Below are positions 4,210 to 32,619 of a stretch of DNA of 64,000 bases, one piece after another; the first letter of the stretch is position 1, and every line of letters starts with the position of its first letter. The stretch is taken from the NCBI GenBank assembly GCA_964566055.1, contig CAZMHI010000004.1, positions 20,053-84,052 on the forward strand, read 5' to 3'. Source of the DNA: an uncultured Rhodospirillaceae bacterium. GTDB lineage: Bacteria > Pseudomonadota > Alphaproteobacteria > Rhodospirillales > UBA2165. The translations under genes were made by a program, and so were the position numbers. The notes below the pieces were generated by a model. That model saw only the letters and a program-made list of their open reading frames with translations, did no database searches and was not told where the DNA came from.

Positions 4210-5993
4210 AGTGATTGGATCGTTTCGGATTTTTTTAACCGGTAGGCCAGTTGCGGGCGAGTGAGGCCGAGCGTGCGGGCCGCTTGGGCAAGGTTGCCGT
4301 TAGCCCGCGCCACCGCTTCTTTCAGCAATTGTCCTTCCATTTCACCAAGTGGAATGCCGCGATCAAGAAAGCGGTCGAGCAAGTCAACATGCTCGGCTGC
4401 TTCAGCGCTCTCAGTATCTTGCTGTAAATTTCCGGTCTCATTGAGTGTCATCATTATCTCCGGAATCCTGCGGGCATCGGCAAACAGATCGGCGACATCG
4501 ATTGGCTGGTCTGAATCAACCAATATAACGGCCCGCTCGATCAGATTTTCCAATTCACGGACATTGCCGGGATAGTCATACTCATAAAGCGCATCAACAG
4601 CCTGCTCGGTAAAGCCAGGTACGGTGCGGCTGTGAGCGCTGGTGTAGCGTTGGAGAAAATGTCCCATCAATAGCGGGATGTCATCGCGGCGTTCGCGCAG
4701 GGGCGGAATATTGACCGGAAATACGTTGAGCCGGAACAATAAGTCCTCGCGAAATTGCTTGTCCCGCACTTTGTCGTCGAGACTTTCATTGGTCGCGGCG
4801 ACAATACGCACATTTGCCTTTCGCACCGTAGTGCCGCCAACCCGCTCGATTTCTTTCTCTTGTAAGGCCCGCAATAGCTTGATCTGAACCTGCAGATTAA
4901 GCGAGCCGATCTCATCTAAAAATAACGTGCCGCCTTCGGCGCGTTCGAAACGGCCGGGGCGTGATGCAACCGCACCGGTATAAGCGCCTTTCTCAACTCC
5001 GAAGAGCTCGGCCTCTACCAGGTTTTCCGGAATAGCGGCGCAGTTAACGGCGATGAAGGGTTTATCCGCGCGCGGTCCAATGCGATGAAGGGTGCGGGCG
5101 AAAATTTCTTTACCAACACCAGTTTCCCCCAAGAATAAAACCGTCGCGTCTGTGTCGGAGACTTTCTGGATCAGATGGCAGGTGGCGTTAAATCCTGGTG
5201 AGGCGCCAATGAGGTCATCGGCAAAGCGATCAGCCTCGGCAGTGTTTTCAACCGGCGTAATAGTTTTGCTTTGGCTGGAGCGGCGATTGGCAAAGGCTTC
5301 CGGCTGGAGGGCTCTCAACTCGGTTTCAATATCATCCCAGTCCTCAACCGGTTTGCCGATGATGCGGCAATGCGGCCCGCTGGCGGCGCGGCATTCAACT
5401 TCTTTAAACACCACCGAGCGGCCCATAAAAGTACTGGCATAACCGCTCGAATAGCCGCTTTGCATCCAACAGACCGCTTCATGGGTTAGGCCGTAGGTCG
5501 CAATATGGGTGTCGGCCTCGTAGGATTCCGGAAAAGTCGCTTCGGAATAAAAATGACCGTTACGTACGTCGATCTCAAACTTTACGGGCTCAAGTGCCGT
5601 CACACCTTGCAGTTTACGCAATTGCGGTCCGACGGCATAGGCATCACGTGTGGTGTGGTGAGGCCGCAGTTTGCGGGCGATATTGGCATCACGCGAACCG
5701 GAAGCGTAACCCATGCGCGTGAAAAAGCCGCGCGCTTCGTCAAGGCCTAGCTTGTCGATCATTTCGGCCCGCAAGGAAGCCAGCGTTGACAAATGGATCA
5801 GGGCTACTCGTTGAGTGTCGAGCCAGATGCGGCCGTTATTTAGAGAAAACCGGAGCCTGGAAACCAGATCGCTGAGATCTTCCGAATGATGCTCATCTTC
5901 CAACTGAGGTTCGATCAGCCGTCCTGTGGTCAATCTGGCTGCATCCGCCTGGCTGATAATCTCATCTGGACCGCCGGTAATTTGATCCGCCAT
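4206..5993 (-). CDS. Sigma-54-dependent transcriptional activator with an XylR_N/V4R aromatic-sensing domain (DmpR/MopR/XylR type)
   Basis: 595 aa. The N-terminus reads GRIWLDTQRVALIHLSTLASLRAEM...GYASGSRDA (XylR_N). The V4R region has C-x22-E-x2-C-x7-C. AAA+ motifs are Walker A GETGVGKE and GAYTGA (a GAFTGA variant). The C-terminal Fis-type HTH reads NLAQAARTLGLTRPQLAYRLKK. Confidence 0.9.
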   Translation of the reverse strand: MADQITGGPDEIISQADAARLTTGRLIEPQLEDEHHSEDLSDLVSRLRFSLNNGRIWLDTQRVALIHLSTLASLRAEMIDKLGLDEARGFFTRMGYASGSRDANIARKLRPHHTTRDAYAVGPQLRKLQGVTALEPVKFEIDVRNGHFYSEATFPESYEADTHIATYGLTHEAVCWMQSGYSSGYASTFMGRSVVFKEVECRAASGPHCRIIGKPVEDWDDIETELRALQPEAFANRRSSQSKTITPVENTAEADRFADDLIGASPGFNATCHLIQKVSDTDATVLFLGETGVGKEIFARTLHRIGPRADKPFIAVNCAAIPENLVEAELFGVEKGAYTGAVASRPGRFERAEGGTLFLDEIGSLNLQVQIKLLRALQEKEIERVGGTTVRKANVRIVAATNESLDDKVRDKQFREDLLFRLNVFPVNIPPLRERRDDIPLLMGHFLQRYTSAHSRTVPGFTEQAVDALYEYDYPGNVRELENLIERAVILVDSDQPIDVADLFADARRIPEIMMTLNETGNLQQDTESAEAAEHVDLLDRFLDRGIPLGEMEGQLLKEAVARANGNLAQAARTLGLTRPQLAYRLKKSETIQSL

Positions 5994-6070
5994 AGCACTC
6001 TCCGGAATTAGATGTAGAATCTATTCAATTGATTAAATCCTTACATTTTTTGTGGCTATTGGCAAATTAG

Positions 6071-6156
6071 ATTTGATCATTTGATAAACTATTTGATCAA
6101 TTAGTAATGTTACTAATTCTCATTTGATGAATTTAGTGCCTTTAGAATTAGATCAA
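6071..6156. promoter_or_regulatory. Candidate upstream activating sequences (repeated TTGAT[C/G]A half-sites and a palindrome) for the sigma-54 activator
   Basis: ATTTGATCA occurs at 6071-6079 and 6091-6099, ATTTGATGA at 6122-6130, and an inverted TTGATC at 6151-6156. A 7-2-7 palindrome TTAGTAA-TG-TTACTAA sits at 6101-6116. The sites lie 85-170 bp upstream of the -24/-12 box in AT-rich DNA. Confidence 0.4.
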
Positions 6157-6240
6157 TCAAAAAGCTAACTTCCTTGAATCAGGCTGCTTTTCAAATCAGC
6201 GAAAAATTAAACCACATTAAAAATCTCTAATACGTGAATC

Positions 6241-6256
6241 TGGCACGCTCCTTGCG
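6241..6256 (+). promoter_or_regulatory. Sigma-54 (-24/-12) promoter
   Basis: TGGCAC-GCTCC-TTGC matches the TGGCAC-N5-TTGC consensus exactly. It faces the operon starting at 6532 and is divergent from the sigma-54 activator gene. Confidence 0.7.
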
Positions 6257-6531: not shown

Positions 6532-8364
6532 ATGTCTAAAAGTTTTCTAAATCCCCATGAAATCGAGGCCATACCCGGTACCGAAGGATGGGAACGGATG
6601 TATCCGTACCAATATCAATTCGTAACGGATGATCCGGAACGAAAAAAATACGAAGAAGAAACTTTCTGGTTCTATGACGGGTTGCATTACCCGGAACCGC
6701 TTTATCCGTTTGATACCATTTGGGATGAAGCCTGGTATCTGGCTTTATCACAATACAATACGCGCATTTTCTCATTGCCGCCGGTCTACGGTGTCGATCA
6801 CCGTATGATCAATGGCTACGTCTATATCTCACCCGTGCCGGTCACCGACCCCTCGGTCGTCGAGGCGCGTGTTCCCGATTTCATGGAACGCGCCGGTTAT
6901 TACTATCAAAACTGGGATGAGCTTGAGGCCAAATGGGAAGAGAAAATGAAAGGCACCATTGCCGAATTGGAGGCTTTGGAAATCGCCGCTCTACCCGATT
7001 TGGAAGAAAAAGGTGTAGTTGATGAGGCGATTGGCGAATCCAAGGGCTATCATCTGCTCAAATCCTATGACGATCTGATCGACCTTGGTATTCGCTGCTG
7101 GCAGTACCATTTCGAGTTCTTGAATTTGGGTTATGCGGCTTATGTCACTTTCATGGGACATTGCCAAAAGTTGTTCCCGGATATTCCGCCACAACGCGTT
7201 ACCCAAATGATATCGGGTATCGATGTGATCATGTATCAGCCGGATGAGGAACTCAAAAACCTCGCCCGCAAAGCGGTTGAACTTGGTGTCGTGGAAGCCG
7301 TCAAATTCAGCAATTCTTTTGATGAAGTCAAAGCCGGTCTGGAAAAAACCGATCCCGGTAAAGAATGGCTAGCTGCTTTGGAAAAAGCACGTTATCCGTG
7401 GTTCTATGTTTCGACCGGTACCGGCTGGTATCACCATGATCGCAGCTGGAACGATGATCTCGATGTTCCATTGGGTTCGATTGTCATTTATATCGAGAAA
7501 ATTATGGCCGGTGAAACCATCGACCGTCCCATGGAGCAGGTTCAACAGGAACGTGACCGCATCACCGCTGAGTATCGCGCGCTGATCGAAAACGAAGAAG
7601 ATCTGGGCGCCTTTGACGAATTGCTGCAAACCGCCAAAACTGTGTTCCCATACGTCGAAAACCATCTGTTCTATGTTGAGCATTGGTTCCATTCAGTGTT
7701 CTGGAACAAAGTGCGTGAAGTTGGCGAGATTATGAAAGCTCATGGTTTCATCAATGACGTCGAGGATATCTGGTATCTCAAACGGGGCGAAATTAAAGAC
7801 GCCTTGTGGGATCTCGTGACTGCTTGGGCGACCAATGTTAATCCTCGTGGTCCGGCAGTTTGGCCGAAAGAAATCGAAGAGCGTAAAGGCATCATGGCGA
7901 AGTTCCGTGAATGGTCTCCACCGCCAGCGATTGGTCCGGCTCCGGAAGTCATTCAAGAGCCGTTTACGGTTGTGCTCTGGGGCGTCACCAACGAGTCGCT
8001 TGAAAACTGGGCCGAAATCGATGAAGCCGCGGATATGGATAGCATTTCCGAATTCAAAGGCTTTGCCGGCAGTCCCGGTACGGTTGAAGGTAAAGCGCGG
8101 GTCTGCCGCACTGTTGCCGATATCGGTATGCTCGAAGAAGGCGAAATTCTGGTGGCCCCGACCACCTCGCCGTCCTGGGCTCCAGCTTTCACTAAGATCC
8201 AAGCCTGCGTCACGGACGTTGGTGGCGTGATGTGTCACGCAGCCATCGTCTGCCGTGAATATGGCGTGCCGGCGGTTGTCGGTACGGGTCATGCAACCAA
8301 GATCGTCAAGACGGGTCAAACCGTCCGGGTCAATGGTAGCACCGGTGAAATTTCCATCGTGTAA
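6532..8364 (+). CDS. PEP-utilising-enzyme family protein, phenylphosphate synthase alpha (PpsA)-like phosphohistidine carrier or substrate-binding subunit
   Basis: 610 aa. The C-terminal mobile domain carries GSPGTVEGKARV...LVAPTTSPSWAPAF...TDVGGVMCHAAIVCREYGVPAVVGT, the phosphohistidine signature. There is no ATP-grasp half. RBS GGGAG lies upstream. Confidence 0.7.
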   Translation: MSKSFLNPHEIEAIPGTEGWERMYPYQYQFVTDDPERKKYEEETFWFYDGLHYPEPLYPFDTIWDEAWYLALSQYNTRIFSLPPVYGVDHRMINGYVYISPVPVTDPSVVEARVPDFMERAGYYYQNWDELEAKWEEKMKGTIAELEALEIAALPDLEEKGVVDEAIGESKGYHLLKSYDDLIDLGIRCWQYHFEFLNLGYAAYVTFMGHCQKLFPDIPPQRVTQMISGIDVIMYQPDEELKNLARKAVELGVVEAVKFSNSFDEVKAGLEKTDPGKEWLAALEKARYPWFYVSTGTGWYHHDRSWNDDLDVPLGSIVIYIEKIMAGETIDRPMEQVQQERDRITAEYRALIENEEDLGAFDELLQTAKTVFPYVENHLFYVEHWFHSVFWNKVREVGEIMKAHGFINDVEDIWYLKRGEIKDALWDLVTAWATNVNPRGPAVWPKEIEERKGIMAKFREWSPPPAIGPAPEVIQEPFTVVLWGVTNESLENWAEIDEAADMDSISEFKGFAGSPGTVEGKARVCRTVADIGMLEEGEILVAPTTSPSWAPAFTKIQACVTDVGGVMCHAAIVCREYGVPAVVGTGHATKIVKTGQTVRVNGSTGEISIV

Positions 8365-8380
8365 GTAACCAACTGCTTGC

Positions 8381-8403
8381 CCACCCGGTCTTTGGCCGGG
8401 TGG
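8381..8403 (+). other. Intra-operon GC-rich hairpin (no T-tract)
   Basis: CCACCCGG-tctttgg-CCGGGTGG, a perfect 8-bp stem between the ppsA-like stop (8364) and the ppsB-like start (8430). Confidence 0.4.
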
Positions 8404-8429
8404 TGCGGGTGGTTAATTTGGAGGGATCG

Positions 8430-9509
8430 ATGGGTTCCGTTTCACCGATCGTTTGCTGGTTCGAAGATTGCAATAAAGATTCCGTTGATTTGGTTGGCGG
8501 TAAATGTTCGTCGCTGGGTGAGCTTATCAATGCCGGTATTCGGGTGCCGCCGGGCTTTGCCGTAACGACCGAAGGCTATCTGCGTTTTATGTCCGAAGGC
8601 GGCATGAGCAAGCAAATATTTAAGACTCTCGAAGGATTGGATCACGAAGATTTGCCGGCGCTTGAGGCGGCCAGTACCGAAATCCGTGATTTGATCGAAA
8701 ATCTGCCATTCTCGGAAGATTTCGAGGACGACGTTGCTGAATACTATCGTCAACTCTCTACCATCTGCTGTGTTCCGGCCGTACCGGTCGCCGTCCGCTC
8801 TAGTGCTACGGCTGAAGATTTACCCGATGCCAGTTTTGCCGGTCAGCAAGATACTTTTCTTTGGGTCCGTGGCATTGATGATGTCCTGACCCATGTCAAA
8901 AAATGTTTTTCCAGCCTGTTTACCGCCCGGGCCATCGCCTATCGCATTCAGATGAATTTTCCGCATGATCAAGTGGCGATTAGTGTCGGCGTACAGAAAA
9001 TGGCGAATTCTCATACTGCTGGCGTGATGTTCACAATCAATCCGGCAAATGGCGACCGTGCTTCCATCGTCATCAATTCAAGCTTCGGTTTTGGCGAGGC
9101 TGTGGTTTCCGGCGAAGTCACACCGGACGAATTCCTGGTTAATAAGATTTCAATGGAGATGCTTAACCGGGTGATTTCCAAGAAAGAGCTTTATTACACG
9201 GTCGATTTTGTCAGCCAAACCTCAAAGCTCTACGACGTGCCGGTTGAGCGGCAATCCATTCAATCTATTGTCGACGAGGAAGTTATAGATCTCGCCGAAA
9301 TGGGAAAACGCATCGAAAAGCATTATGGCCGTCCGATGGATATCGAATGGGCTGTCGACAAAGACATGCCGGCCGATGCCAATATTTTCATTCTCCAAGC
9401 ACGGCCTGAAACCGTGTGGAGTTCCAAGAAAAAAGAACCTGTTGCCGTCACCGGCAGCGCTATGGACCACATTTTAGCGTCAGTGATGGAGGGCAAAAGT
9501 CTCAACTAA
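8430..9509 (+). CDS. PEP synthase/PPDK N-terminal (ATP-grasp) domain protein, phenylphosphate synthase beta (PpsB)-like
   Basis: The ORF track starts at 8400. I prefer ATG 8430 after GGAGGGA. The sequence VDLVGGKCSSLGELINAGIRVPPGFAVTTEGY...VAVRSSATAEDLPDASFAGQQDTFL is the PPDK_N nucleotide-binding half only. Confidence 0.75.
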   Translation: MGSVSPIVCWFEDCNKDSVDLVGGKCSSLGELINAGIRVPPGFAVTTEGYLRFMSEGGMSKQIFKTLEGLDHEDLPALEAASTEIRDLIENLPFSEDFEDDVAEYYRQLSTICCVPAVPVAVRSSATAEDLPDASFAGQQDTFLWVRGIDDVLTHVKKCFSSLFTARAIAYRIQMNFPHDQVAISVGVQKMANSHTAGVMFTINPANGDRASIVINSSFGFGEAVVSGEVTPDEFLVNKISMEMLNRVISKKELYYTVDFVSQTSKLYDVPVERQSIQSIVDEEVIDLAEMGKRIEKHYGRPMDIEWAVDKDMPADANIFILQARPETVWSSKKKEPVAVTGSAMDHILASVMEGKSLN

Positions 9510-9601
9510 GAAATCAATTTGAAGCACCAGAATACCGGCTCAATCCACCAAGGATACCGGGAAATTATCACAATTATCTAGATTCAAAATAGGAGAGAAA
9601 A

Positions 9602-11101
9602 ATGGATAAACAACTTAAACCAAATGCGATTGATGATATTCGATCATACATTGCAGCGCTTGATGCTGCGGGAGAACTACATCGGGTTAAAACCGAAGTC
9701 GATTGGGAATATGAGCTTTGCCATGTTTCCAAGGTGAACGAAGAACAAGATGGTCCAGCGTTGCTATATGAAAACGTCAAAGACAATACGGTTCCGGTTT
9801 TCACCAGCGCCTTCACCACCAAAGAACGCTTGGCCATTGCGCTTGAGCAGGAACCAGGTCTTTCGATGAGTGATCTCGCCCAGAAATGGATGGAATTGAC
9901 CACTCAGGGACTTATACCGCCGGAATATGTTGATGAAGTTCCGGTCATGGAAAACCAGATGGTTGGTGACGATATCGATATCACCAAGTTTCCTGTGCCG
10001 TGGTTCTATCCCGATGATGGTGGCCGCTTCTTTGTGACTGCTGGTTATCTGATTACCGAAGATCCGGATACCGGCTGGTCCAACCTTGGTACTTATCGTT
10101 CGCAAGTCTTGGGACCGGATCTTCTGGGTTCGCAAATCCTGCCTGGTAAGCACGGTGAGTTCCACATGAAGAAATATCAGGAACGTGGTGAATTGATGCC
10201 GGCTGCTGCCGTGGTTGGTTGTGATCCTGTGCTGTTCCTGGCGGGCTCGACCTTGGTCAGTTCCGATGTCTCCGAATATGATGTCGCCGGTGCATTGCGC
10301 CAGCGTCCGGTACCGGTCTTTAAATCCGACGTGACCGGCCTGACTTTGCCGGCCAATGCGGAGATTATCGCTGAAGGCTTTGTTGATCCGAACGAGTTGA
10401 TGGATGAAGGTCCGTTTGGCGAATATACCGGTTACTATTCGGGTAACAAAGGTAAAGACTTCCCAAAACCGGTGCTGCGTATCAAACGTATCCTTTACCG
10501 GAACAAGCCGGTTATGTGGTCAACCACGGTTGGTAAACCAATCAATGACATTCACATGATCCAATCGCTTAACCGGACGGCAACGCTCTGGCATGATCTC
10601 GAAACCATGAAAGTGCCAGGTATCGAAAGTGTCTACATTCCACCGGAAGCTTGTGGCCGGTTCTGGGCTATCGTTTCGGTGCGCCAGAAATATCCGGGTC
10701 ACTCCAACCATGTCGGTAACGCGGTGATCGCGTCAACCACAGGTCACTATGGCATCAAGGGTGTGATTACGGTCGATCATGATATCCAGGCGGATGACTG
10801 GGATCGCGTGATGTGGGCCTTGTCGACCCGCTTCGATCCGAAACGTTCAGCCCAGATCATTGATCGTGGCCGCTCGACGGTGCTTGATCCGGGTCTGCCA
10901 ATCGATGCGCGTAAAATCACCAGCCGTATTCTGCTGGATGCTTGTACGCCGTATGAATGGGAAAATAAACCAAACGAGATTTTCATGGATCGCAAAGTTC
11001 TGCAGAAAGTCTCTGACCGGTGGAATGATTATGGCTTCGAAGGGACTAGCCCGGTTGCCAATATGATTGACCGGCTGACCAAACCGGAAACGGCTGAATA
11101 A
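9602..11101 (+). CDS. UbiD-family prFMN-dependent (de)carboxylase
   Basis: 499 aa. It has a UbiD-type N-terminus (DIRSYIAALDAAGELHRVKTEVDWEYEL) and UbiD-typical length and layout. RBS AGGAGA. UbiX and an LpdD-like gene lie in the same operon. Confidence 0.85.
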   Translation: MDKQLKPNAIDDIRSYIAALDAAGELHRVKTEVDWEYELCHVSKVNEEQDGPALLYENVKDNTVPVFTSAFTTKERLAIALEQEPGLSMSDLAQKWMELTTQGLIPPEYVDEVPVMENQMVGDDIDITKFPVPWFYPDDGGRFFVTAGYLITEDPDTGWSNLGTYRSQVLGPDLLGSQILPGKHGEFHMKKYQERGELMPAAAVVGCDPVLFLAGSTLVSSDVSEYDVAGALRQRPVPVFKSDVTGLTLPANAEIIAEGFVDPNELMDEGPFGEYTGYYSGNKGKDFPKPVLRIKRILYRNKPVMWSTTVGKPINDIHMIQSLNRTATLWHDLETMKVPGIESVYIPPEACGRFWAIVSVRQKYPGHSNHVGNAVIASTTGHYGIKGVITVDHDIQADDWDRVMWALSTRFDPKRSAQIIDRGRSTVLDPGLPIDARKITSRILLDACTPYEWENKPNEIFMDRKVLQKVSDRWNDYGFEGTSPVANMIDRLTKPETAE

Positions 11102-11114
11102 TATCCCAGCTAAA

Positions 11115-11152
11115 TAGGGGGGGTGGGTTCAACTCACTCCCCTAATTTTTTT
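11115..11152 (+). terminator. Candidate intrinsic terminator or attenuator inside the operon
   Basis: TAGGGG(gg)GTG...CAC(t)CCCCTA forms a GC-rich stem followed by AATTTTTTT (T-run 11146-11152). It lies between the UbiD stop and the UPF0261 start. Confidence 0.45.
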
Positions 11153-11184
11153 CAAGATTTAAAGTAAATAGGAATTACGGCGTC

Positions 11185-12447
11185 ATGGTTGAAAAAAAAG
11201 GAATTGTCATTATCTGCAACCTCGATACCAGGGGTGAAGATATCATCTTTGTCAAAGAGATGATCGAAGAGCGCGGCCACAATGCCGTGCTGGTCGATGT
11301 CAGTATGGAGGAACCACCACCTTTTGCCGGTGACGTTACGTGTGAAGAAGTTGCTGAACGCGGCGGTAAGACAATCGAGGAAGTGCGTAGATGTTACCGC
11401 GAAGACCGCGATGAGGCGACCCAAAACCAAATCAGAGGTGCGGCGGCAATTGTCGATGATCTCCTCAAAGAAGGTAAAGTCCACGGAATTTTTGGCGTTG
11501 GCGGCGGAACGGCGACGCTGATCTCAACTGCCATTATGAGGAAACTGCCATTTGGTATGCCGAAAGTCATGGCTTCGCCAATGGCCGCACATCCCCGCTA
11601 TATCGATAAATATGTCGGTACCAGCGACCTCACCATGCATCACACCATACTCGATATTGTCAAAATGAATCCGCTTCTGAAAGCGCAGATCACAAATGCG
11701 ATTGGCGCCATCTGCGGTATGGTCGAGATGACCATGGGCACTGAGTTTAAATTTGATAAGCCGGTGGTCGCGATCACCGCTTTTAGTTTCGGTGAAATGG
11801 CCGTGCAAACGGCTGTAAGGATGCTGGAAGAGGAAGGCTTTACGCCGATTGTTTGTCATTCCCAGGGTAAGGGCGACCGCGCCATGGAAGAAATGATTAA
11901 AGACGGCGCCTTTGATGGCATTATTGATATCTGCACCGGCGGCATTATGGAGCATCTTTATGATGGCAATCGTGATCCGGGCCCGGACCGTCTCAAAGCC
12001 GCGGCTGCGGCAGGTATCCCAGCCGTGCTGGCTCCCTGCGGGCTTGATATTCTGAGTTATGGCGGGCGGGAAGATAAAATCGAGCAATCCAAAGACCGGG
12101 TGCAATTTGTCCAGGATGCCCTGCGCGTCCAGGTGCGAACCAATGCAGAGGAACTTACCCAAGCAGCAGATGTGATTGCCGAGCGGCTCAACCAGTCGAC
12201 CGGCCCGTTTACTTTTATGCTGCCGATGCAGGGATGGTCGTCTCTGGACCGGGAAGGCTGCCCAATTTACGATCTTGAGGCTGATGCGGTTTTTGCCGAA
12301 CGCCTACAAGAGAAAATTGATGATAAGACCGCGGTTAAAGAAGTTGACCTGCACCTCTATACGCCGGAATTTGCCAGGGCGGCGGTTGATGAATTTAAGC
12401 GCCTCTATGAACTGAGCAATTCTTCCGAGATGGATAAAGCGGGATAA
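11185..12447 (+). CDS. UPF0261 / Tm-1-like ATP-binding domain protein (function unknown)
   Basis: 420 aa. The N-terminus MVEKKGIVIICNLDTRGEDIIFVKEMIEERGHNAVLVDVS resembles the UPF0261 family pattern (IxxxGTLDTKGEE...). Family assignment is from memory. Confidence 0.6.
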   Translation: MVEKKGIVIICNLDTRGEDIIFVKEMIEERGHNAVLVDVSMEEPPPFAGDVTCEEVAERGGKTIEEVRRCYREDRDEATQNQIRGAAAIVDDLLKEGKVHGIFGVGGGTATLISTAIMRKLPFGMPKVMASPMAAHPRYIDKYVGTSDLTMHHTILDIVKMNPLLKAQITNAIGAICGMVEMTMGTEFKFDKPVVAITAFSFGEMAVQTAVRMLEEEGFTPIVCHSQGKGDRAMEEMIKDGAFDGIIDICTGGIMEHLYDGNRDPGPDRLKAAAAAGIPAVLAPCGLDILSYGGREDKIEQSKDRVQFVQDALRVQVRTNAEELTQAADVIAERLNQSTGPFTFMLPMQGWSSLDREGCPIYDLEADAVFAERLQEKIDDKTAVKEVDLHLYTPEFARAAVDEFKRLYELSNSSEMDKAG

Positions 12448-12461
12448 TTGGAGGGCCTGTT

Positions 12462-13139
12462 ATGCTTGTGCAAAATTGGATGAAAAGTAATCCGGAAACA
12501 GTCACCAGTGATACTCTGGTTTCCGAGGCCAAGCGTCTTTTGACGGAAAAAAATCTGCGCGCCTTGCCGGTGGTGGATGACGACCGCTTGCGGGGGCTGA
12601 TTACGCGGGCCAATTGCCTGCGCGCTGCTGAGTTTGTTTCCCGTGGCCAGGACCCCAACGAATTTGATTTTTTCGCCAATCGTTTAAAAGTTAAAGACCT
12701 TATGTCCCGCCGCCCGGCAACGGTCAGTGCCGATGACACCATGGAGCATTGCCTGAGGCGTGGTCAGGATGAAGACATCAGCCAGTTTCCGGTCGTCGAT
12801 GGTGACAAGCTTATCGGTATAATTTCGGCATCGGAGATTTTCGGCTTGGCCGCTCATGTGCTGGGCGCTTGGGACAGCTGGAGCGGCATTACTCTATCCC
12901 CAATGATTATCGATAAAGGCACTTTGGGCGAGATTGCCGGCATTGTCGAAGACAACGGCGGCACACTGCAATCCATGTTCACGGTGGATGAAAACGGCAG
13001 TGATTTGAAACGGGTAATCTTAAGATTTCAGGCCGATGACTTTGATGCAGTGGGTGCAGCCCTGACAGATGCTGGATTTACGCTCTTGGAAGCTTGCCCT
13101 GAGGTGCAAAATAATCAAAATACGAGCGATGCAGGATAA
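12462..13139 (+). CDS. Tandem-CBS plus ACT-like domain protein (AcuB-like), phenylphosphate synthase stimulatory subunit (PpsC)-like
   Basis: 225 aa. Two CBS motifs are visible (LRALPVVDDDRLRGLITRAN; ISQFPVVDGDKLIGIISASEI) with a C-terminal ACT-like region. RBS GGAGGG. Confidence 0.7.
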   Translation: MLVQNWMKSNPETVTSDTLVSEAKRLLTEKNLRALPVVDDDRLRGLITRANCLRAAEFVSRGQDPNEFDFFANRLKVKDLMSRRPATVSADDTMEHCLRRGQDEDISQFPVVDGDKLIGIISASEIFGLAAHVLGAWDSWSGITLSPMIIDKGTLGEIAGIVEDNGGTLQSMFTVDENGSDLKRVILRFQADDFDAVGAALTDAGFTLLEACPEVQNNQNTSDAG

Positions 13140-13545
13140 TTCTGACAATCTTGAGAAATTTGCCGTTAGCAGCAGCGATGTGATATACACGGTTTGCGCC
13201 GAAGCAGTTAAAATCGGCAATGACTATCTGGTATATTTATGGGGTGGTGAAGCGCCTCATATCGGTGCTGTTGCAGCGGCCCAGCCCCGGCCCAGCTTGG
13301 TAGACCCGGCAGAAACCAGTGCGTCATCCTCGGTGTTGACCTATGTCGGTCATAAAGAGGATATTGTGGCCAAACAGGTCGCCGAAGATTTATCCAGTGC
13401 GCTTGATGAAAATGTTGTTGTCACCGCCGGGATTCATTGGGATAACATCGAAAAAACCGGTATCGAAAAAGTGGTTGCAGGATGCCGGGAAGTTACCGAA
13501 GCACTGATTGAGGTGCTCGGCAAACACAGCAAGGAAACGAAATGA
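13129..13545 (+). CDS. LpdD-like small protein (putative prenylated-flavin chaperone or accessory subunit of the UbiD enzyme)
   Basis: The ORF track starts at 13069, inside the CBS gene. I prefer ATG 13129, which overlaps the CBS stop. The motifs WGGEAPHIGAVA and VTAGIHWDNI resemble the GGxxPHIG and TAGIH motifs I recall from Lactobacillus LpdD. The stop overlaps the ubiX start (ATGA). Confidence 0.45.
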   Translation: MQDNSDNLEKFAVSSSDVIYTVCAEAVKIGNDYLVYLWGGEAPHIGAVAAAQPRPSLVDPAETSASSSVLTYVGHKEDIVAKQVAEDLSSALDENVVVTAGIHWDNIEKTGIEKVVAGCREVTEALIEVLGKHSKETK

Positions 13546-14192
13546 CACACCCTCTTGTCGTCGCTGTTACCGGTGCCACCGGCGTGATTTACGGCGTTGA
13601 ATTGCTTAAAGTTCTGAAAGAACTTGGCGAGGAAACCCATCTGATTTTAAGTGAATCAGCCGGCCGCAATTTGAAAATCGAGACTGAATATAATCTCGAT
13701 GATGTGCGCGCTTTGGCTGATGTTGTCTACAGCAACAAGGACATTGGTGCCGCGGTCGCCAGTGGATCTTTCCTGACCCGGGGTATGGTGGTCGTGCCCT
13801 GCACAATCAAAAGCCTTTCGGCGATTGCCAATTCCTACAATGACAATCTCGTTGCCCGGGCAGCCGATGTGACTTTGAAGGAGAAGCGCCGCTTGGTGCT
13901 GATGGTAAGGGAAACACCCTTGCACAAAGGCCATCTCGATTTGATGTCCCGTAGCGCTGATTTGGGGGCGACGATCCTGCCGCCGATGCCGTCCTTTTAT
14001 CACGGACCGCAAACCATCCAGGACATTATTAACCAAAGTATCGGTAAGGTGCTGGATCAGTTCAGCATCGAGCATAGTCTTTTCCGCCGCTGGAAAGGCG
14101 ATGAGCGGGTGACCGATCGGGAAGTTAAAACGCCTAGCAAAGATAGAGTAGAAGAGCTGGAATCCCGCTTCGGTGAAATCAAGCGTATGTAG
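13542..14192 (+). CDS. ubiX: UbiX-family flavin prenyltransferase (prFMN synthase)
   Basis: 216 aa. VVAVTGATGVIYGVELLKVL...MVVVPCTIKSLSAIANSYNDNLVARAADVTLKEKRRLVLMVRETPL is a classic UbiX/Pad1 sequence. Confidence 0.9.
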   Translation: MTHPLVVAVTGATGVIYGVELLKVLKELGEETHLILSESAGRNLKIETEYNLDDVRALADVVYSNKDIGAAVASGSFLTRGMVVVPCTIKSLSAIANSYNDNLVARAADVTLKEKRRLVLMVRETPLHKGHLDLMSRSADLGATILPPMPSFYHGPQTIQDIINQSIGKVLDQFSIEHSLFRRWKGDERVTDREVKTPSKDRVEELESRFGEIKRM

Positions 14193-16526: not shown

Positions 16527-17008
16527 TGCGCTGCTCCCTTGAGTTGACCGGCAGCTTGAACGGCCGAGGCGATAATTTTTTCATAGCCGGTACAGCGGCA
16601 GATGTTGCCTGAAATACCTTCACGAATCTCGGCTTTGCCCGCCTCGGGATTGCTTTTAAGGATGGAACTGACGGTCAGGATCATACCGGACGAACAAAAA
16701 CCGCATTGAATGCCGCCGGTATCAACGAAGGATTGTTGCACAACGTCCAAACCTTCGGGTGTGGCCAGTCCCTCGATGGTGGTTATCTCAGCACCTTCGC
16801 AGAGGGCAGCGATAGTTAAACAGCCCCGTACCGGTTCACCATTGATCAAAACCGTGCAGGTGCCGCAGACGCCCTGATCGCAGCCCCGTTTGGCACCGGT
16901 TAAATTAAGTCTTTCGCGCAGCACAGTCAGTAGAGTTTCCTGAGCCGGCGCCGTGACGGTTTCAATCTCGCCATTAATATTGAGATCGTAAGTTAAAGTA
17001 TCACTCAT
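16523..17008 (-). CDS. (2Fe-2S)-binding small subunit of the Mo hydroxylase (set 1)
   Basis: 161 aa with both cluster motifs: CDQGVCGTCTV...C and QCGFCSSGM...CRCTGY. Confidence 0.9.
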   Translation of the reverse strand: MSDTLTYDLNINGEIETVTAPAQETLLTVLRERLNLTGAKRGCDQGVCGTCTVLINGEPVRGCLTIAALCEGAEITTIEGLATPEGLDVVQQSFVDTGGIQCGFCSSGMILTVSSILKSNPEAGKAEIREGISGNICRCTGYEKIIASAVQAAGQLKGAAQ

Positions 17009-32603: not shown

Positions 32604-32619
32604 TTGGGGAGGGGAAATA

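What the first reader, a model, noticed from the sequence alone, without database searches (positions are those of the whole stretch)
6532..14192. Non-canonical ATP-dependent aromatic carboxylation operon: PpsA/B/C-like kinase, single UbiD, UPF0261, LpdD-like and UbiX
Seven same-strand genes are packed tightly, with gaps of 14-92 nt, one ATGA overlap and one 11-nt overlap. Three of them reproduce the unusual split of phenylphosphate synthase described in Thauera aromatica. The first is a 610-aa protein with only the phosphohistidine swivel domain (GGVMCHAAIVCRE). The second is a 359-aa protein with only the PPDK_N ATP-grasp half. The third is a 225-aa 2xCBS/AcuB-like protein. By length these correspond to roughly 70, 40 and 24 kDa subunits. 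Where the described pathway has phenylphosphate carboxylase (two UbiD paralogues, a ~10-kDa subunit and a HAD-phosphatase-like subunit), this operon has something different. It has one UbiD, its own prFMN synthase (UbiX), an LpdD-like protein of the kind found in reversible hydroxyarylic-acid decarboxylases, and an uncharacterised UPF0261 ATP-binding protein. So a phosphoryl-activating front end is wired to a different, self-sufficient prFMN (de)carboxylase back end, under a phenol-sensor-type sigma-54 activator. The surrounding genome also encodes oxygenases. Neither the substrate nor the way the phosphate ester is coupled to carboxylation without the delta or gamma subunits can be predicted from known systems.
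Basis: partly seen in the sequence, partly recalled or inferred. Interest (0 to 1): 0.8.

Follow-up and report, generated by a model that had tools for sequence, protein, structure and literature searches.

The report
Geobacter-type phenol carboxylation operon
This is a well-conserved bacterial operon that most likely phosphorylates phenol and then adds CO2 to make 4-hydroxybenzoate; the operon type has been known from Geobacter since 2007, but its always-present "unknown" gene belongs to a family shown in 2025 to be aromatic kinases, which gives a testable lead to how this carboxylase works with a single UbiD subunit.

Summary
Seven tightly packed same-strand genes lie at 6532-14192: PpsA-like, PpsB-like, UbiD, UPF0261, 2xCBS, LpdD and UbiX. 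A divergent XylR-type sigma-54 activator sits upstream, and the window's only perfect -24/-12 promoter is at 6241-6255.

Regulator | ppsA ppsB ppcB 418-aa hypothetical CBS ubiX is the order of Geobacter metallireducens Gmet_2099-2105. It recurs in 46 of 49 full-context loci from Beta-, Gamma-, Alpha- and Deltaproteobacteria, Bacillota and Actinomycetota.

The kinase proteins are 72%, 65% and 51% identical to PpsABC of a canonical ppsABC-ppcBDAG cluster (Azoarcus KH32C). The UbiD passes the NCBIfam PpcB equivalog cut-off. Phenol is therefore the predicted substrate.

What is new is the role suggested for UPF0261:
- It replaces PpcD/PpcA/PpcG. It is present in 46 of 49 window-type loci and in 0 of 5 canonical loci, and no PpcG homologue was found in any locus.
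- It belongs to the family of MarK, an ATP-dependent phenolic-OH kinase described in 2025.
- Its Desulfatiglans anilini counterpart (H567DRAFT_02057) is about 50-fold more abundant on phenol in published proteome tables, which the paper's text does not discuss.

Its exact step is inferred, not shown. The operon is a new member of a known kind, and interest is moderate.

The parts
4206..5993 (-). XylR/DmpR-type sigma-54 transcriptional activator (aromatic-effector sensor domain, AAA+ domain, Fis-type HTH)
   Evidence: Pfam XylR_N, V4R, Sigma54_activat, AAA_lid_14 and HTH_8. It is 48% identical to the regulator of the canonical Azoarcus KH32C pps-ppc cluster. A homologue sits in the same divergent position in 34 of 49 full-context loci.
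6027..6170 (.). AT-rich block of repeated or palindromic ATTTGATCA-like motifs; candidate upstream activating sequences for the activator
   Evidence: Direct and inverted repeat families D1-D3 and I2, I3, I6. They lie 70-215 bp upstream of the -24/-12 promoter. Function is inferred from position only.
6241..6255 (+). Sigma-54 (-24/-12) promoter TGGCACGCTCCTTGC
   Evidence: This is the only zero-mismatch match to TGGCAC-N5-TTGC in the 64-kb window. It lies in the regulator-ppsA intergenic region, 277 bp upstream of the ppsA ATG.
6532..8364 (+). PpsA: phenylphosphate synthase alpha subunit (phospho-histidine swivel domain plus an N-terminal domain with no Pfam match)
   Evidence: PEP-utilizers domain at residues 534-605 only. 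NCBIfam NF006152 scores 1120 bits against a cut-off of 723. It is 71.6% identical over 609 aa to PpsA of the Azoarcus KH32C ppsABC-ppcBDAG cluster. His motif GGVMCHAAIVCRE is at residue 564.
8430..9509 (+). PpsB: phenylphosphate synthase beta subunit (ATP-grasp / PPDK_N half)
   Evidence: PPDK_N only, E=1.7e-116. 65.6% identical to Azoarcus PpsB. A GGAGG site precedes the ATG at 8430.
9602..11101 (+). PpcB-type UbiD (prFMN-dependent carboxylase), the only carboxylase subunit in the operon
   Evidence: TIGR02724 phenyl_P_beta scores 561 bits (cut-off 469). phenyl_P_alpha scores only 205 bits (cut-off 565). 52.7% identical to Azoarcus PpcB and 30% to PpcA. It keeps N161, R166, H184, E225, E269 and E274, which correspond to AnFdc1 N168, R173, H191, E233, E277 and E282.
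11185..12447 (+). UPF0261 / MarK-family ATP-binding protein; conserved partner of single-UbiD (PpcB-only) clusters
   Evidence: Pfam UPF0261 and UPF0261_C. Hits MarK (9MPY) at E=6e-54 and Tm-1 at 2e-39. Present in 72 of 81 related loci, usually immediately after the UbiD gene, and in 0 of 5 canonical clusters. D14, T15 and H219 are conserved; K16 is R.
12462..13139 (+). PpsC: CBS-pair protein (stimulatory gamma subunit of phenylphosphate synthase)
   Evidence: Two CBS domains. 51% identical to the CBS protein encoded between ppsB and ppcB in Azoarcus KH32C.
13129..13545 (+). LpdD-like prFMNH2-binding chaperone (accessory; present in only 9 of 81 related loci)
   Evidence: Pfam PAC_bac E=1.6e-36. 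Hits solved LpdD structures 8pzh, 8p4w and 8po5 at E=8e-5. Function taken from PMC10865409. Never co-occurs with the PNPOx-family gene found in 40 of 81 other loci.
13542..14192 (+). UbiX flavin prenyltransferase (prFMN synthase)
   Evidence: NF004685 scores 252 bits (cut-off 188) and TIGR00421 scores 246 bits. 55% identical to the Azoarcus cluster UbiX.

Best explanation
The operon is a sigma-54-controlled module for ATP-dependent para-carboxylation of phenol, or a very close analogue, to 4-hydroxybenzoate. It is of the 'PpcB-only' type first seen in Geobacter metallireducens and Desulfatiglans anilini.

Steps supported by orthology:
1. The XylR-type activator senses the aromatic compound and fires the -24/-12 promoter at 6241-6255.
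2. PpsB pyrophosphorylates the swivel histidine of PpsA from ATP. PpsA transfers phosphate to phenol, giving phenylphosphate + AMP + Pi. The CBS protein PpsC stimulates the reaction.
3. UbiX makes prFMNH2 and LpdD chaperones it into the UbiD.
4. The PpcB-type UbiD, which keeps the full set of metal-binding and catalytic residues, adds CO2 para to the oxygen.

Inferred step: the UPF0261 protein, a member of the MarK family of phenolic-OH kinases, is an integral pathway protein. It takes over what PpcD (phosphatase-like), PpcA and PpcG do in the Thauera-type enzyme. It would bind phenol or phenylphosphate at its conserved His225 (MarK His219) pocket. It would then carry out the phosphoryl transfer that delivers phenolate to the UbiD. 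This could run forward (phenol + ATP -> phenylphosphate + ADP) or in reverse (phenylphosphate + ADP -> phenolate + ATP). Which direction it runs is not known.
For: Kinase orthology:
- PpsA, PpsB and PpsC are 71.6%, 65.6% and 51.4% identical to those of a canonical ppsABC-ppcBDAG cluster. The regulator is 48% and UbiX 55% identical.

UbiD:
- It passes the PpcB equivalog cut-off, as do its Geobacter, Desulfotomaculum, Desulfomonilaceae and Actinomycetota counterparts.
- The active site N-R-H-E-E-E is intact. The roles of these residues in Fdc1 come from PMC4947166.

Gene order:
- The order matches Gmet_2099-2105, Geobacter argillaceus L051 and Geotalea toluenoxydans L054.
- Phenol induction and phenylphosphate formation are reported for PpcB-only clusters in D. 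anilini (PMC6114531).

Promoter.

UPF0261:
- Present in 46 of 49 full-context window-type loci and in 0 of 5 canonical loci, Fisher p=1.8e-5.
- No PpcG homologue was found in any locus, and PpcD appears in only 1 of 81.
- The subfamily is 72-95% conserved.
- The MarK ATP-site residues D-T-(K/R) and the phenolic-O histidine are invariant in 58-59 sequences.
- MarK's activity is described in PMC12624787.
- D. anilini UPF0261 (H567DRAFT_02057) has proteome areas of 0 / 5e7 / 5e7 / 2.5e9. The high value is in the same column as the peaks of PpcB, the AMP ligase and UbiX, and it is about 65 times the UbiX signal.
- Two loci, L053 and L062, carry regulator-UbiD-UPF0261-UbiX with no PpsAB within 10 kb.
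Against: - No enzyme activity was or could be measured here.
- Only 64 kb of the genome is visible, so ppcD- or ppcG-like genes could lie elsewhere.
- The window shows no 4-hydroxybenzoate-CoA ligase and no bona fide 4-hydroxybenzoyl-CoA reductase. The neighbouring Mo-hydroxylases score far below the 4-HBCR cut-offs. The genes around the operon look aerobic: LigB, HpaB and an FAD monooxygenase.
- MarK residues that contact the acetovanillone substituents (H304, H348, T196, I285) are replaced by Q, L, F and S. K16 is R. Substrate and activity therefore cannot be transferred directly from MarK.
- Most of the divergent UPF0261 subtype in Deltaproteobacteria and Bacillota (10 of 17 group-B sequences) has Ser instead of His219.
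- Canonical clusters also differ by carrying a riboflavin-kinase (DUF120) gene and a third UbiD. UPF0261 could be replacing one of those functions instead.
- The co-occurrence statistics are not corrected for phylogeny.
Confidence: 0.7

Rival explanations
1. Same machinery, different substrate. The operon would activate and carboxylate a substituted phenol, a dihydroxybenzene, aniline or a hydroxy-N-heterocycle rather than phenol itself.
For: - The window is an aromatic and heterocycle catabolic island. It has three Mo-hydroxylase sets, two Amidohydro_2 decarboxylase-like genes, LigB, HpaB and an FAD hydroxylase.
- Pps-family kinases have diverged to aniline (PasAB, PMC7500099), to 4-alkylphenols (CreHI) and to hydroxyphenylethanones (HpeHI) (PMC9618137).
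- The window-type UbiD is only 53% identical to canonical PpcB.
Against: - PpsA is 72% identical to the PpsA of a canonical phenol cluster. By contrast, the aniline enzyme PasA is only about 27% identical to PpsA in the same organism.
- The phenol, alkylphenol and hydroxyphenylethanone kinases form separate clades.
- The Geobacter and D. anilini versions of this operon type are tied to growth on phenol.
- The adjacent Mo-hydroxylase is not conserved even in the closest relative, L003.
Confidence: 0.15
2. UPF0261 is not a pathway enzyme but a cofactor-supply kinase for prFMN. It would phosphorylate riboflavin to FMN or prenol to dimethylallyl phosphate, substituting for the DUF120 riboflavin kinase and NUDIX genes of canonical clusters.
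For: - All 5 canonical clusters carry a CTP-dependent riboflavin kinase (DUF120) next to ubiX. Only 3-4 of 81 window-type loci carry one.
- These operons collect prFMN helper genes: UbiX, LpdD, PNPOx-family, NUDIX and HAD.
- MarK-family proteins are ADP-forming kinases of hydroxyl groups on aromatic compounds.
Against: - The gene lies directly after the UbiD gene and is separated from ubiX by the CBS gene. In delta and Bacillota loci ubiX lies upstream of ppsA, far from UPF0261.
- The Geobacter-like loci L051, L055, L058 and L062 have both DUF120-HAD and UPF0261.
- In D. anilini the UPF0261 signal is about 65 times that of UbiX and about one seventh that of PpcB, which is more like a pathway protein.
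- The His that H-bonds the phenolic oxygen in MarK is invariant in the window subfamily.
Confidence: 0.12
3. UPF0261 is simply a second, independent ADP-forming phenol kinase running in parallel with PpsABC, for example for a different concentration range or a wider substrate range. The single UbiD alone would do everything that PpcABCD does.
For: - MarK and the Pps-like AcvAB/HpeHI kinases phosphorylate the same substrates. About 25% of genomes that have either one encode both.
- L053 and L062 have UbiD-UPF0261-UbiX without nearby Pps.
- Two PpcB-like proteins alone converted phenylphosphoamidate in vitro (PMC7500099).
Against: - Redundancy does not explain the strict alternation with PpcD/A/G, nor the very high conservation (72-95%) and fixed position after the UbiD gene.
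- The MarK authors report no phosphorylation of guaiacol and a preference for aldehyde- or ketone-substituted aromatics. Simple phenols may therefore be poor substrates for this family.
Confidence: 0.2

Closest known systems
Geobacter metallireducens GS-15 pps-ppcB cluster (Gmet_2099-Gmet_2105)
   Same: The gene order is identical: Fis-family sigma-54 regulator | PpsA, PpsB, UbiD/'carboxylyase' (PpcB), a 1257-bp hypothetical gene, a CBS protein and a UbiX-type 'phenylacrylic acid decarboxylase'. Other Geobacteraceae loci (L051, L054) carry UbiD at 73-75%, UPF0261 at 72-73% and PpsA at 69-70% identity to the window. There is no ppcA or ppcC in the cluster.
   Different: The window adds LpdD between the CBS gene and ubiX, and lacks the PNPOx-family gene. 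The host appears to be a marine gamma- or alphaproteobacterium with oxygenase genes, not a strict anaerobe with a benzoyl-CoA island. I could not read the Gmet_2103 sequence itself. Its identity as UPF0261 rests on size, position and the two related Geobacteraceae loci.
Thauera/Azoarcus-type ppsABC-ppcBDAG(C) phenol cluster (here Azoarcus sp. KH32C pAZKH, L082)
   Same: It has the same regulator type, PpsA/B/C orthologues (72/65/51% identity), a PpcB homologue (53%), UbiX (55%) and sigma-54 control.
   Different: The canonical cluster has PpcD (HAD), PpcA, PpcG (PF09662), a third UbiD and a DUF120 riboflavin kinase, and it has no UPF0261. ppsC precedes ppcB. Canonical PpcB and PpcA have lost the Fdc1-H191-equivalent Mn ligand (H->R and H->L), which the window UbiD keeps.
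Desulfatiglans anilini phe cluster (H567DRAFT_02049-02059)
   Same: It has PpsA, PpsB, a single PpcB, UbiX and a UPF0261 protein (02057), with no ppcC. It is phenol-induced at protein level.
   Different: The D. anilini arrangement includes an AMP ligase between ppcB and UPF0261. It also includes a CoA ligase and a putative 4-hydroxybenzoyl-CoA reductase, and its ppsC lies elsewhere. In the related delta and Bacillota loci the cluster UPF0261 is a divergent subtype, about 35% identical to the window protein and with Ser at MarK His219. The D. anilini sequence itself was not examined.
MarK (Saro_1862, PDB 9MPY), multiple aromatic kinase of Novosphingobium aromaticivorans
   Same: Same two-domain UPF0261 fold family (E=6e-54, about 31% identity). 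The ATP-site Asp-Thr and the phenolic-oxygen His are conserved.
   Different: K16 is Arg. The pocket residues H304, H348, T196 and I285 become Q, L, F and S. The genomic partner is a UbiD carboxylase rather than a biotin carboxylase and phosphatase (acvCDEF). The substrate and the direction of the reaction are unknown.
LpdBCD / VdcBCD-type hydroxyarylic acid decarboxylases
   Same: The UbiD + UbiX + LpdD trio. LpdD has been characterised as a prFMNH2 chaperone.
   Different: The window UbiD scores only 287 bits against VdcC (cut-off 650). It is coupled to an ATP-dependent kinase front end. LpdD is optional in this operon family, present in 9 of 81 loci.

Membership tests
Phenylphosphate synthase (PpsABC) | Alpha subunit of about 70 kDa with a phospho-histidine swivel (PEP-utilizers) domain and no ATP-grasp domain; conserved catalytic His motif | tested here: met
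   610 aa with PEP-utilizers at residues 534-605 only. GGVMCHAAIVCRE is at residue 564, against GGVMSHAAIVCRE in Azoarcus PpsA.
Phenylphosphate synthase (PpsABC) | Separate beta subunit of about 40 kDa consisting of the PPDK_N ATP-binding half | tested here: met
   359 aa, PPDK_N only. 65.6% identical to Azoarcus PpsB.
Phenylphosphate synthase (PpsABC) | Gamma subunit of about 24 kDa with a CBS pair, encoded in the same operon | tested here: met
   225 aa with 2xCBS. 51% identical to the Azoarcus cluster CBS protein.
Phenylphosphate synthase (PpsABC) | Orthology to PpsA of a cluster that also encodes PpcABCD, rather than to PEP synthase, rifampicin phosphotransferase or PasA | tested here: met
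   71.6% identity over 609 aa to Azoarcus KH32C PpsA. PEP synthase and rifampicin phosphotransferase models match only the C-terminal 100 residues, at 100-120 bits against cut-offs of 600-1000.
Phenylphosphate synthase (PpsABC) | Catalyses phenol + ATP -> phenylphosphate + AMP + Pi | not testable with these tools
   Requires an enzyme assay.
Thauera-type phenylphosphate carboxylase (PpcABCD) | Beta subunit (UbiD family, TIGR02724) | tested here: met
   561 bits against a cut-off of 469. 52.7% identical to Azoarcus PpcB.
Thauera-type phenylphosphate carboxylase (PpcABCD) | Alpha subunit (second UbiD paralogue, TIGR02723) encoded alongside | tested here: not met
   There is no PpcA-like gene in the operon or the window. 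The only other UbiD-like gene (50288-51658) scores 94 bits against a cut-off of 565 and lacks the catalytic residues.
Thauera-type phenylphosphate carboxylase (PpcABCD) | Gamma subunit (about 10 kDa, Pfam PF09662 Phenyl_P_gamma) | tested here: not met
   tblastn with Azoarcus PpcG found nothing in the window or in the 81 related loci. The rest of the genome is not visible.
Thauera-type phenylphosphate carboxylase (PpcABCD) | Delta subunit (KdsC-like HAD phosphatase) | tested here: not met
   tblastn with Azoarcus PpcD found nothing in the window and a hit in only 1 of 81 loci, L078. The rest of the genome is not visible.
Geobacter/Desulfatiglans-type PpcB-only pps-ppc cluster | Gene order: sigma-54 regulator | ppsA ppsB ppcB (about 418-aa hypothetical/UPF0261) CBS ubiX, without ppcA or ppcC | tested here: met
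   Window order. Gmet_2099-2105 table. L051, L054 and L055. This order occurs in 28 of 49 full-context loci.
Geobacter/Desulfatiglans-type PpcB-only pps-ppc cluster | Induced by, and required for, anaerobic growth on phenol | not testable with these tools
   Literature only: D. anilini proteomics and RT-PCR.
prFMN-dependent UbiD (de)carboxylases | Mn2+/prFMN-phosphate ligands and the catalytic R/E/E (AnFdc1 N168, H191, E233; R173, E277, E282) | tested here: met
   N161, H184, E225, R166, E269 and E274 are present and invariant in alignment A1. Residue roles come from PMC4947166. The correspondence to Fdc1 numbering is by motif and spacing, not by a direct alignment to Fdc1.
prFMN-dependent UbiD (de)carboxylases | Cognate UbiX flavin prenyltransferase available | tested here: met
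   The gene at 13542-14192 scores 252 bits against NF004685, cut-off 188.
MarK / UPF0261 aromatic kinases | Two-domain UPF0261 architecture with full-length similarity to MarK | tested here: met
   Pfam PF06792 and PF23189. 9MPY at E=6e-54 over residues 1-404.
MarK / UPF0261 aromatic kinases | ATP-site D14-T15-K16 | tested here: inconclusive
   D and T are conserved. K16 is Arg in the window and in all 58 aligned subfamily members with a residue at this position (one further sequence has a gap). MarK with Glu at this position is about 1600-fold slower. The effect of Arg is unknown.
MarK / UPF0261 aromatic kinases | His219 hydrogen-bonding the phenolic oxygen | tested here: met
   His225 of the window protein aligns with it. 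It is invariant in 59 of 59 window-subfamily sequences.
MarK / UPF0261 aromatic kinases | Acetovanillone-pocket residues G195, T196, H304 and H348, and clustering with acvCDEF/hpeCBAD genes | tested here: not met
   In the window these are S, F, Q and L. Across the subfamily F, Q and L are conserved, and position 195 is Gly in 54 of 59. No biotin carboxylase genes are nearby. This protein is therefore not a MarK orthologue but a distinct subfamily.
MarK / UPF0261 aromatic kinases | ATP-dependent phosphorylation of a phenolic hydroxyl with ADP as product | not testable with these tools
   Requires an enzyme assay.
LpdD prFMNH2 chaperone | PAC_bac fold family, similarity to solved LpdD, and the conserved H35/H61/D63 metal site | tested here: met
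   PF21758 at E=1.6e-36. 8pzh at E=8e-5. In that alignment PHIG and GHKED align with LpdD PHIG and HKD. The two His are kept, and Glu aligns with the Asp of HKD. The identification of these residues as H35, H61 and D63 is by motif. The site is described in PMC10865409.
4-hydroxybenzoyl-CoA reductase (for the adjacent Mo-hydroxylase 14199-17847) | Alpha, beta and gamma subunits reach the TIGR03194, TIGR03195 and TIGR03193 cut-offs; the beta subunit carries the extra Fe-S insertion | tested here: not met
   Alpha scores 565 against 995, beta 118 against 405 (matching only model positions 160-316; the protein is 279 aa), and gamma 150 against 258.

The most novel reading that the evidence does not exclude
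The MarK-family UPF0261 protein is the missing catalytic partner of single-UbiD phenylphosphate carboxylases. There are two possibilities. It could be an ADP-dependent phenylphosphate phosphotransferase that hands phenolate to PpcB and regenerates ATP. This would halve the ATP cost and would explain how iron reducers, sulfate reducers and syntrophs can afford phenol carboxylation. Alternatively it could be an ADP-forming phenol kinase that, with one UbiD and UbiX, forms a minimal three-gene ATP-dependent phenol carboxylase, as in loci L053 and L062.
Probability: 0.4. Interest if true: 0.75.

Novelty: new member of a known kind. Interest (0 to 1): 0.5.

Why it matters
Anaerobic phenol carboxylation is the textbook biological counterpart of the Kolbe-Schmitt reaction. 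Only the four-subunit Thauera enzyme has been dissected. The D. anilini study states that the lack of ppcC there and in Geobacter points to a different catalytic mechanism, and it leaves the ATP budget of sulfate reducers unexplained.

This analysis shows three things:
- The PpcB-only operon is the widespread form.
- Its one unannotated gene is nearly always present and alternates with PpcD/A/G.
- That gene belongs to a family now known to phosphorylate phenolic hydroxyl groups.

This turns an old open question into a simple set of experiments: UbiD with and without UPF0261, with ATP or ADP. If the result is confirmed, it would give a compact, self-sufficient gene set (UbiD, UPF0261, UbiX, LpdD, with or without PpsABC) for biocatalytic para-carboxylation of phenols. 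For the window itself the result is ordinary: another member of this operon family, in a marine proteobacterium that also carries oxygenase-based aromatic pathways.

Tried and rejected
1. Adjacent Mo-hydroxylase (14199-17847) as 4-hydroxybenzoyl-CoA reductase. Rejected. All three subunits score far below the NCBIfam cut-offs, the FAD subunit lacks the HcrB-specific part, and the adjacency is not conserved in L003.

2. Recurrent HAD gene in related loci as the 'missing' PpcD. Rejected. It is a PGP-type HAD, and in Geobacter-like loci it is fused to a CTP-dependent riboflavin kinase. tblastn with a real PpcD found only L078.

3. A general UbiD-UPF0261 pairing beyond PpcB. In L075 a menaquinone-type UbiD sits next to a second UPF0261. 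This is seen in that one locus only, so it was dropped.

4. Second UbiD genes in L017, L063 and L075 as PpcA. Rejected. None reaches the TIGR02723 cut-off.

5. Unbiased ORF clustering of the 81 loci. It was partly spoiled by long antisense ORFs in high-GC genomes. I used it only to pick candidates, which were then checked by Pfam and tblastn.

6. Primary papers of Schleinitz 2009, Schuhle & Fuchs 2004 and Breinig 2000. They are not held in the library. Statements about them come from citing papers or are marked as my own recollection.

7. Solved structures. There is none for the PpsA N-terminal 500 residues.

8. Literature search for UPF0261 together with UbiD found nothing. The MarK paper never mentions phenylphosphate, UbiD or anaerobes.

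9. No structure prediction was run. The sequence match to 9MPY was already decisive for family assignment, and a monomer model could not tell the rival functions apart.

Full report
OBSERVATION

The seven ORFs are real and lie on the + strand. Using the start codons with ribosome-binding sites, the gene coordinates are:
- 6532-8364 (610 aa)
- 8430-9509 (359 aa)
- 9602-11101 (499 aa)
- 11185-12447 (420 aa)
- 12462-13139 (225 aa)
- 13129-13545 (138 aa)
- 13542-14192 (216 aa)

Pfam and NCBIfam assign the seven proteins as follows:
- A PEP-utilizers swivel domain with nothing else recognisable. The motif GGVMCHAAIVCRE is at residue 564.
- PPDK_N only.
- A three-domain UbiD.
- Both UPF0261 domains.
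- Two CBS domains.
- PAC_bac (PF21758).
- UbiX.

The PAC_bac protein also matches the solved LpdD structures 8pzh, 8p4w and 8po5 at E=8e-5.

The divergent upstream gene (4206-5993, - strand) is a XylR_N/V4R/sigma-54/HTH_8 activator. The intergenic region holds the window's only perfect TGGCAC-N5-TTGC site, at 6241-6255 on the + strand. Repeated ATTTGATCA-like motifs lie 70-215 bp upstream of that site.

WHAT IT IS

I scanned one genome per species with an alignment of UbiD relatives. tblastn of the window proteins against these loci gave the following:
- PpsA > PpsB > UbiD > UPF0261 > CBS > UbiX is the commonest order, in 28 of 49 loci with full flanks.
- UPF0261 is present in 46 of those 49.
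- The same XylR-type regulator sits in the same divergent position in 34 of 49.

The hosts are Burkholderiales, Rhodocyclales (including Georgfuchsia toluolica), Gamma- and Alphaproteobacteria, Geobacter argillaceus, Geotalea toluenoxydans and Desulfuromonadaceae. With a more divergent layout, they also include Desulfomonilaceae, Desulfotomaculum, other Bacillota and an Actinomycetota MAG.

The closest relatives are two marine MAGs. In L002 (Gammaproteobacteria NP949) the six shared genes (regulator, PpsA, PpsB, UbiD, UPF0261, CBS) are 91-96% identical. In L003 (Rhodospirillaceae NP992) the UbiD is 92% identical.

The exact seven-gene order including LpdD is rare: 3 of 49 full-context loci, and LpdD in 9 of 81 loci overall.

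This is not an undescribed arrangement. The gene table of the G. metallireducens aromatic island lists the following (supplement of PMC1924859):
- Gmet_2099: Fis-family regulator
- Gmet_2100: best hit Thauera PpsA
- Gmet_2101: PPDK-type protein
- Gmet_2102: carboxylyase, best hit a Thauera aromatica protein
- Gmet_2103: 'hypothetical', 1257 bp, that is 418 aa
- Gmet_2104: CBS protein, best hit Thauera
- Gmet_2105: phenylacrylic acid decarboxylase, that is UbiX

The main text names Gmet_2100-2102 as the phenol genes.

For Desulfatiglans anilini, PMC6114531 describes a phenol-induced cluster with ppsA, ppsB, one ppcB and a ubiX-like gene. It reports no ppcC in the genome. It states that this agrees with Geobacter and points to 'a different catalytic mechanism'.

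COMPARISON WITH THE CANONICAL SYSTEM

A plasmid search returned a fully annotated Thauera-type cluster on Azoarcus sp. KH32C pAZKH. Its order is: PNPOx-family gene and sigma-54 regulator (both on the opposite strand) | ppsA ppsB CBS ppcB ppcD ppcA ppcG ubiD' ubiX DUF120 NUDIX AMP-ligase.

Identity of the window proteins to their Azoarcus counterparts:

| Window protein | Azoarcus counterpart | Identity |
|---|---|---|
| PpsA | PpsA | 71.6% |
| PpsB | PpsB | 65.6% |
| CBS | PpsC | 51.4% |
| Regulator | Regulator | 48% |
| UbiX | UbiX | 55% |
| UbiD | PpcB | 52.7% |
| UbiD | PpcA | 30% |

The UbiD exceeds the PpcB equivalog cut-off, scoring 561 against 469. So do its counterparts in Geobacter, Desulfotomaculum, Desulfomonilaceae and Actinomycetota.

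The front end is therefore an orthologue of phenylphosphate synthase. It is not a PEP synthase half, not a rifampicin phosphotransferase, and not the aniline enzyme. In D. anilini the aniline enzyme is only about 27% identical to PpsA.

tblastn with the Azoarcus subunits gave these results:
- PpcG: nothing in the window or in any of the 81 loci.
- PpcD: L078 only.
- PpcA: no orthologue.

I then sampled four further canonical PpcB relatives, found with the Azoarcus PpcB as query. They come from Pseudomonadales, Chloroflexi, Clostridia and Deferrisoma camini. All show ppcB-HAD-ppcA-Phenyl_P_gamma-ubiD'-ubiX plus PpsA, PpsB and a CTP-dependent riboflavin kinase. None has UPF0261 within 9 kb.

UPF0261 is thus in 46 of 49 window-type loci and in 0 of 5 canonical loci (Fisher p=1.8e-5; not corrected for phylogeny). 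The two operon types share one scaffold. They differ by a swapped module: PpcD/PpcA/PpcG/UbiD'/DUF120 in one, UPF0261 in the other.

THE UPF0261 PROTEIN

The UPF0261 protein matches PDB 9MPY at E=6e-54 over its whole length, and Tm-1 at 2e-39. 9MPY is MarK of Novosphingobium aromaticivorans. It was reported in 2025 as the first catalytic activity for this family: ATP-dependent, ADP-forming phosphorylation of the phenolic hydroxyl of acetovanillone and related aromatics (PMC12624787).

The MarK paper does not mention phenylphosphate, UbiD or anaerobes. No paper in the searchable library contains both 'UPF0261' and 'UbiD'.

I aligned MarK with 76 UPF0261 sequences (one from the window, 75 from the related loci). 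The 59 sequences of the window subfamily (the window protein plus 58 from the loci) show the following:
- MarK D14 and T15 are conserved.
- K16 is Arg in every sequence with a residue at that position.
- His219, the residue that hydrogen-bonds the phenolic oxygen, is invariant. It is His225 in the window protein.
- The residues around the acetovanillone substituents are replaced by a different set that is itself conserved: T196F, I285S, H304Q and H348L.

This is therefore a distinct subfamily with its own pocket. It is very strongly conserved: the best 120 database hits are 72-95% identical and none carries a functional name.

A divergent subtype is about 35% identical to the window protein. 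It occurs in delta and Bacillota loci, usually after an AMP ligase that follows the UbiD gene. Most of these have Ser at the His219 position.

D. anilini has such a gene: H567DRAFT_02057, annotated 'UPF0261 family', 403 aa. It lies between ubiX (02056) and the AMP ligase/ppcB pair (02058/02059). In the published proteome table its areas are 0, 5.0e7, 5.3e7 and 2.5e9. The high value falls in the same column as the maxima for PpcB and the ligase, and that is the only column in which UbiX is detected. The paper says UbiX is seen only with phenol. The protein is thus about 50-fold phenol-induced and about 65 times more abundant than UbiX. The paper's main text never mentions 02057.

THE UbiD

The window UbiD and all its PpcB-only relatives keep N161, R166, H184, E225, E269 and E274. 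By motif and spacing these correspond to AnFdc1 N168, R173, H191, E233, E277 and E282. In Fdc1 these are the Mn2+ ligands and the cofactor-associated residues (PMC4947166).

Canonical Azoarcus PpcB has Arg and Asp at the H191 and E233 positions, and PpcA has Leu at H191. The single-subunit enzymes therefore look like complete, standard prFMN enzymes. Both canonical paralogues have an altered metal site. This fits a model in which the window-type UbiD works as a homo-oligomer. That model is an inference.

LpdD is a prFMNH2-binding chaperone (PMC10865409). In these operons it never co-occurs with the PNPOx-family gene that accompanies 40 of 81 loci and the canonical cluster. Among full-context loci the counts are 0 with both, 7 with LpdD only, 30 with PNPOx only and 12 with neither (p=6e-4).

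MECHANISM

Supported by orthology:
1. The aromatic compound is sensed by the XylR-type activator, which drives sigma-54 transcription.
2. PpsB, PpsA and PpsC make phenylphosphate from phenol and ATP, with AMP + Pi as products. The chemistry is summarised in PMC6114531.
3. UbiX and LpdD supply prFMN.
4. The PpcB-type UbiD carboxylates para to the oxygen, giving 4-hydroxybenzoate.

Inferred: UPF0261 is a pathway protein that handles the phenol/phenylphosphate phosphoryl transfer. It stands in for the phosphatase-like PpcD and for the PpcA and PpcG partners. The direction could be forward, as a second and cheaper ADP-forming kinase. Two loci, L053 and L062, carry only regulator-UbiD-UPF0261-UbiX with no Pps within 10 kb. 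The direction could instead be reverse, with phenylphosphate + ADP giving phenolate for the UbiD plus ATP. That would ease the ATP-budget problem raised for sulfate reducers. I cannot decide between these.

Rivals are a cofactor-supply kinase (because DUF120 also alternates with UPF0261), a purely parallel kinase, and a different substrate.

CONTEXT AND CAVEATS

The window is an aromatic catabolic island. It contains:
- three Mo-hydroxylase sets, none of which reaches the 4-hydroxybenzoyl-CoA reductase cut-offs
- two Amidohydro_2 genes
- a LigB-type dioxygenase
- HpaB
- an FAD aromatic hydroxylase with a GST
- a DMSO-reductase-family enzyme with NrfD
- a degenerate UbiD-like gene

No CoA ligase or benzoyl-CoA pathway gene is visible. 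The fate of 4-hydroxybenzoate and the oxygen regime under which the operon is used are unknown.

Phenol-type kinases do occur in aerobes (CreHI, HpeHI, AcvAB, MarK), so an oxygen-tolerant host is not a contradiction. Only 64 kb of the genome can be seen. All functional statements rest on homology, synteny and published data from other organisms.

VERDICT

The window carries a new member of the Geobacter/Desulfatiglans-type PpcB-only phenol carboxylation operon.

The useful new point is the tight, module-swapping association of a MarK-family UPF0261 protein with single-UbiD phenylphosphate carboxylases. It makes the long-standing question of how these enzymes work directly testable.

Scores: interest 0.5; novelty, new member of a known kind.

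Noticed in passing
window 13129-13545; loci L002-L081: LpdD and a PNPOx-family flavoprotein gene (usually next to the regulator, and also present in the canonical Azoarcus cluster) never occur in the same locus. Among 49 full-context loci, 0 have both, 7 have LpdD only, 30 have PNPOx only and 12 have neither (Fisher p=6e-4). They may be alternative helpers for prFMN loading or maturation.
   Followed up: partly
L082 13998-15419 (PpcB) and 15981-17441 (PpcA), compared with window 9602-11101: Canonical Azoarcus PpcB has Arg and Asp, and PpcA has Leu, at the positions of the Fdc1 Mn2+ ligands H191 and E233. All PpcB-only UbiDs keep His and Glu. The canonical heteromer may bind its cofactor or metal differently.
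   Followed up: partly
window 50288-51658 (+): A second UbiD-family gene (456 aa) sits next to a MarR regulator. It lacks the catalytic R/E/E (N-G-H-E-I-S at the six key positions) and the UbiD_N domain, and it scores below every NCBIfam cut-off. It is probably a non-catalytic or diverged paralogue.
   Followed up: partly
L008, L013, L076 (Burkholderiales); L066-L078 (delta and Bacillota): An AMP-forming ligase of about 550 aa lies directly after the UbiD gene. It resembles D. anilini 02058, annotated '2,3-dihydroxybenzoate-AMP ligase', which is phenol-induced and of unknown role. In L008, L013 and L076 it occupies the slot where UPF0261 normally sits. In the delta and Bacillota loci ligase and UPF0261 occur together.
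   Followed up: partly
L053 7641-13473; L062 about 9968-13491: A minimal arrangement of sigma-54 regulator, UbiD, UPF0261 and UbiX, with no PpsA or PpsB within 10 kb on either side. L053 also has a second, MarK-like UPF0261 (DTK, His219) next to DUF1302/DUF1329 outer-membrane genes.
   Followed up: partly
L051 17890-18948 (-), also L055, L058, L062: In Geobacter-like loci a CTP-dependent riboflavin kinase domain (DUF120) is fused to a HAD phosphatase and lies next to the PNPOx gene on the opposite strand. From memory, Schleinitz et al. 2009 reported a ppcD homologue near the Geobacter cluster on the opposite strand. This gene might be that one, which would make it a flavin-metabolism gene rather than a carboxylase subunit.
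   Followed up: partly
L066-L078, UPF0261 copies downstream of the UbiD/ligase genes: The cluster-linked UPF0261 of Desulfomonilaceae, Desulfotomaculum and Bacillota has Ser (GFSA[AT]G) where MarK and the window subfamily have the phenol-binding His. A second, divergently transcribed UPF0261 in the same Desulfomonilaceae loci keeps the His.
   Followed up: no
window 14199-17847 (-), 23264-26936 (+), 45696-47990 (-): Three xanthine-dehydrogenase-family Mo-hydroxylase sets lie within 64 kb. All are below the cut-offs for 4-hydroxybenzoyl-CoA reductase, xanthine dehydrogenase and CO dehydrogenase, and their substrates are unknown. The first converges on ubiX with a 6-nt gap and is followed by a DUF2478 gene.
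   Followed up: partly
window 29383-33573 (+): A DMSO-reductase-family molybdoenzyme (871 aa, of which only the N-terminal third resembles PhsA) with an NrfD-type membrane subunit is embedded among aromatic catabolic genes (Amidohydro_2, HpaB). It could be an anaerobic hydroxylase or a respiratory enzyme.
   Followed up: no
window 18001-22000: GC content drops to 0.44-0.45, against about 0.52 on either side. The region holds ORFs with no Pfam match (18671-19636, 19633-20364, 21971-23128). It may be an island boundary or an insertion.
   Followed up: no
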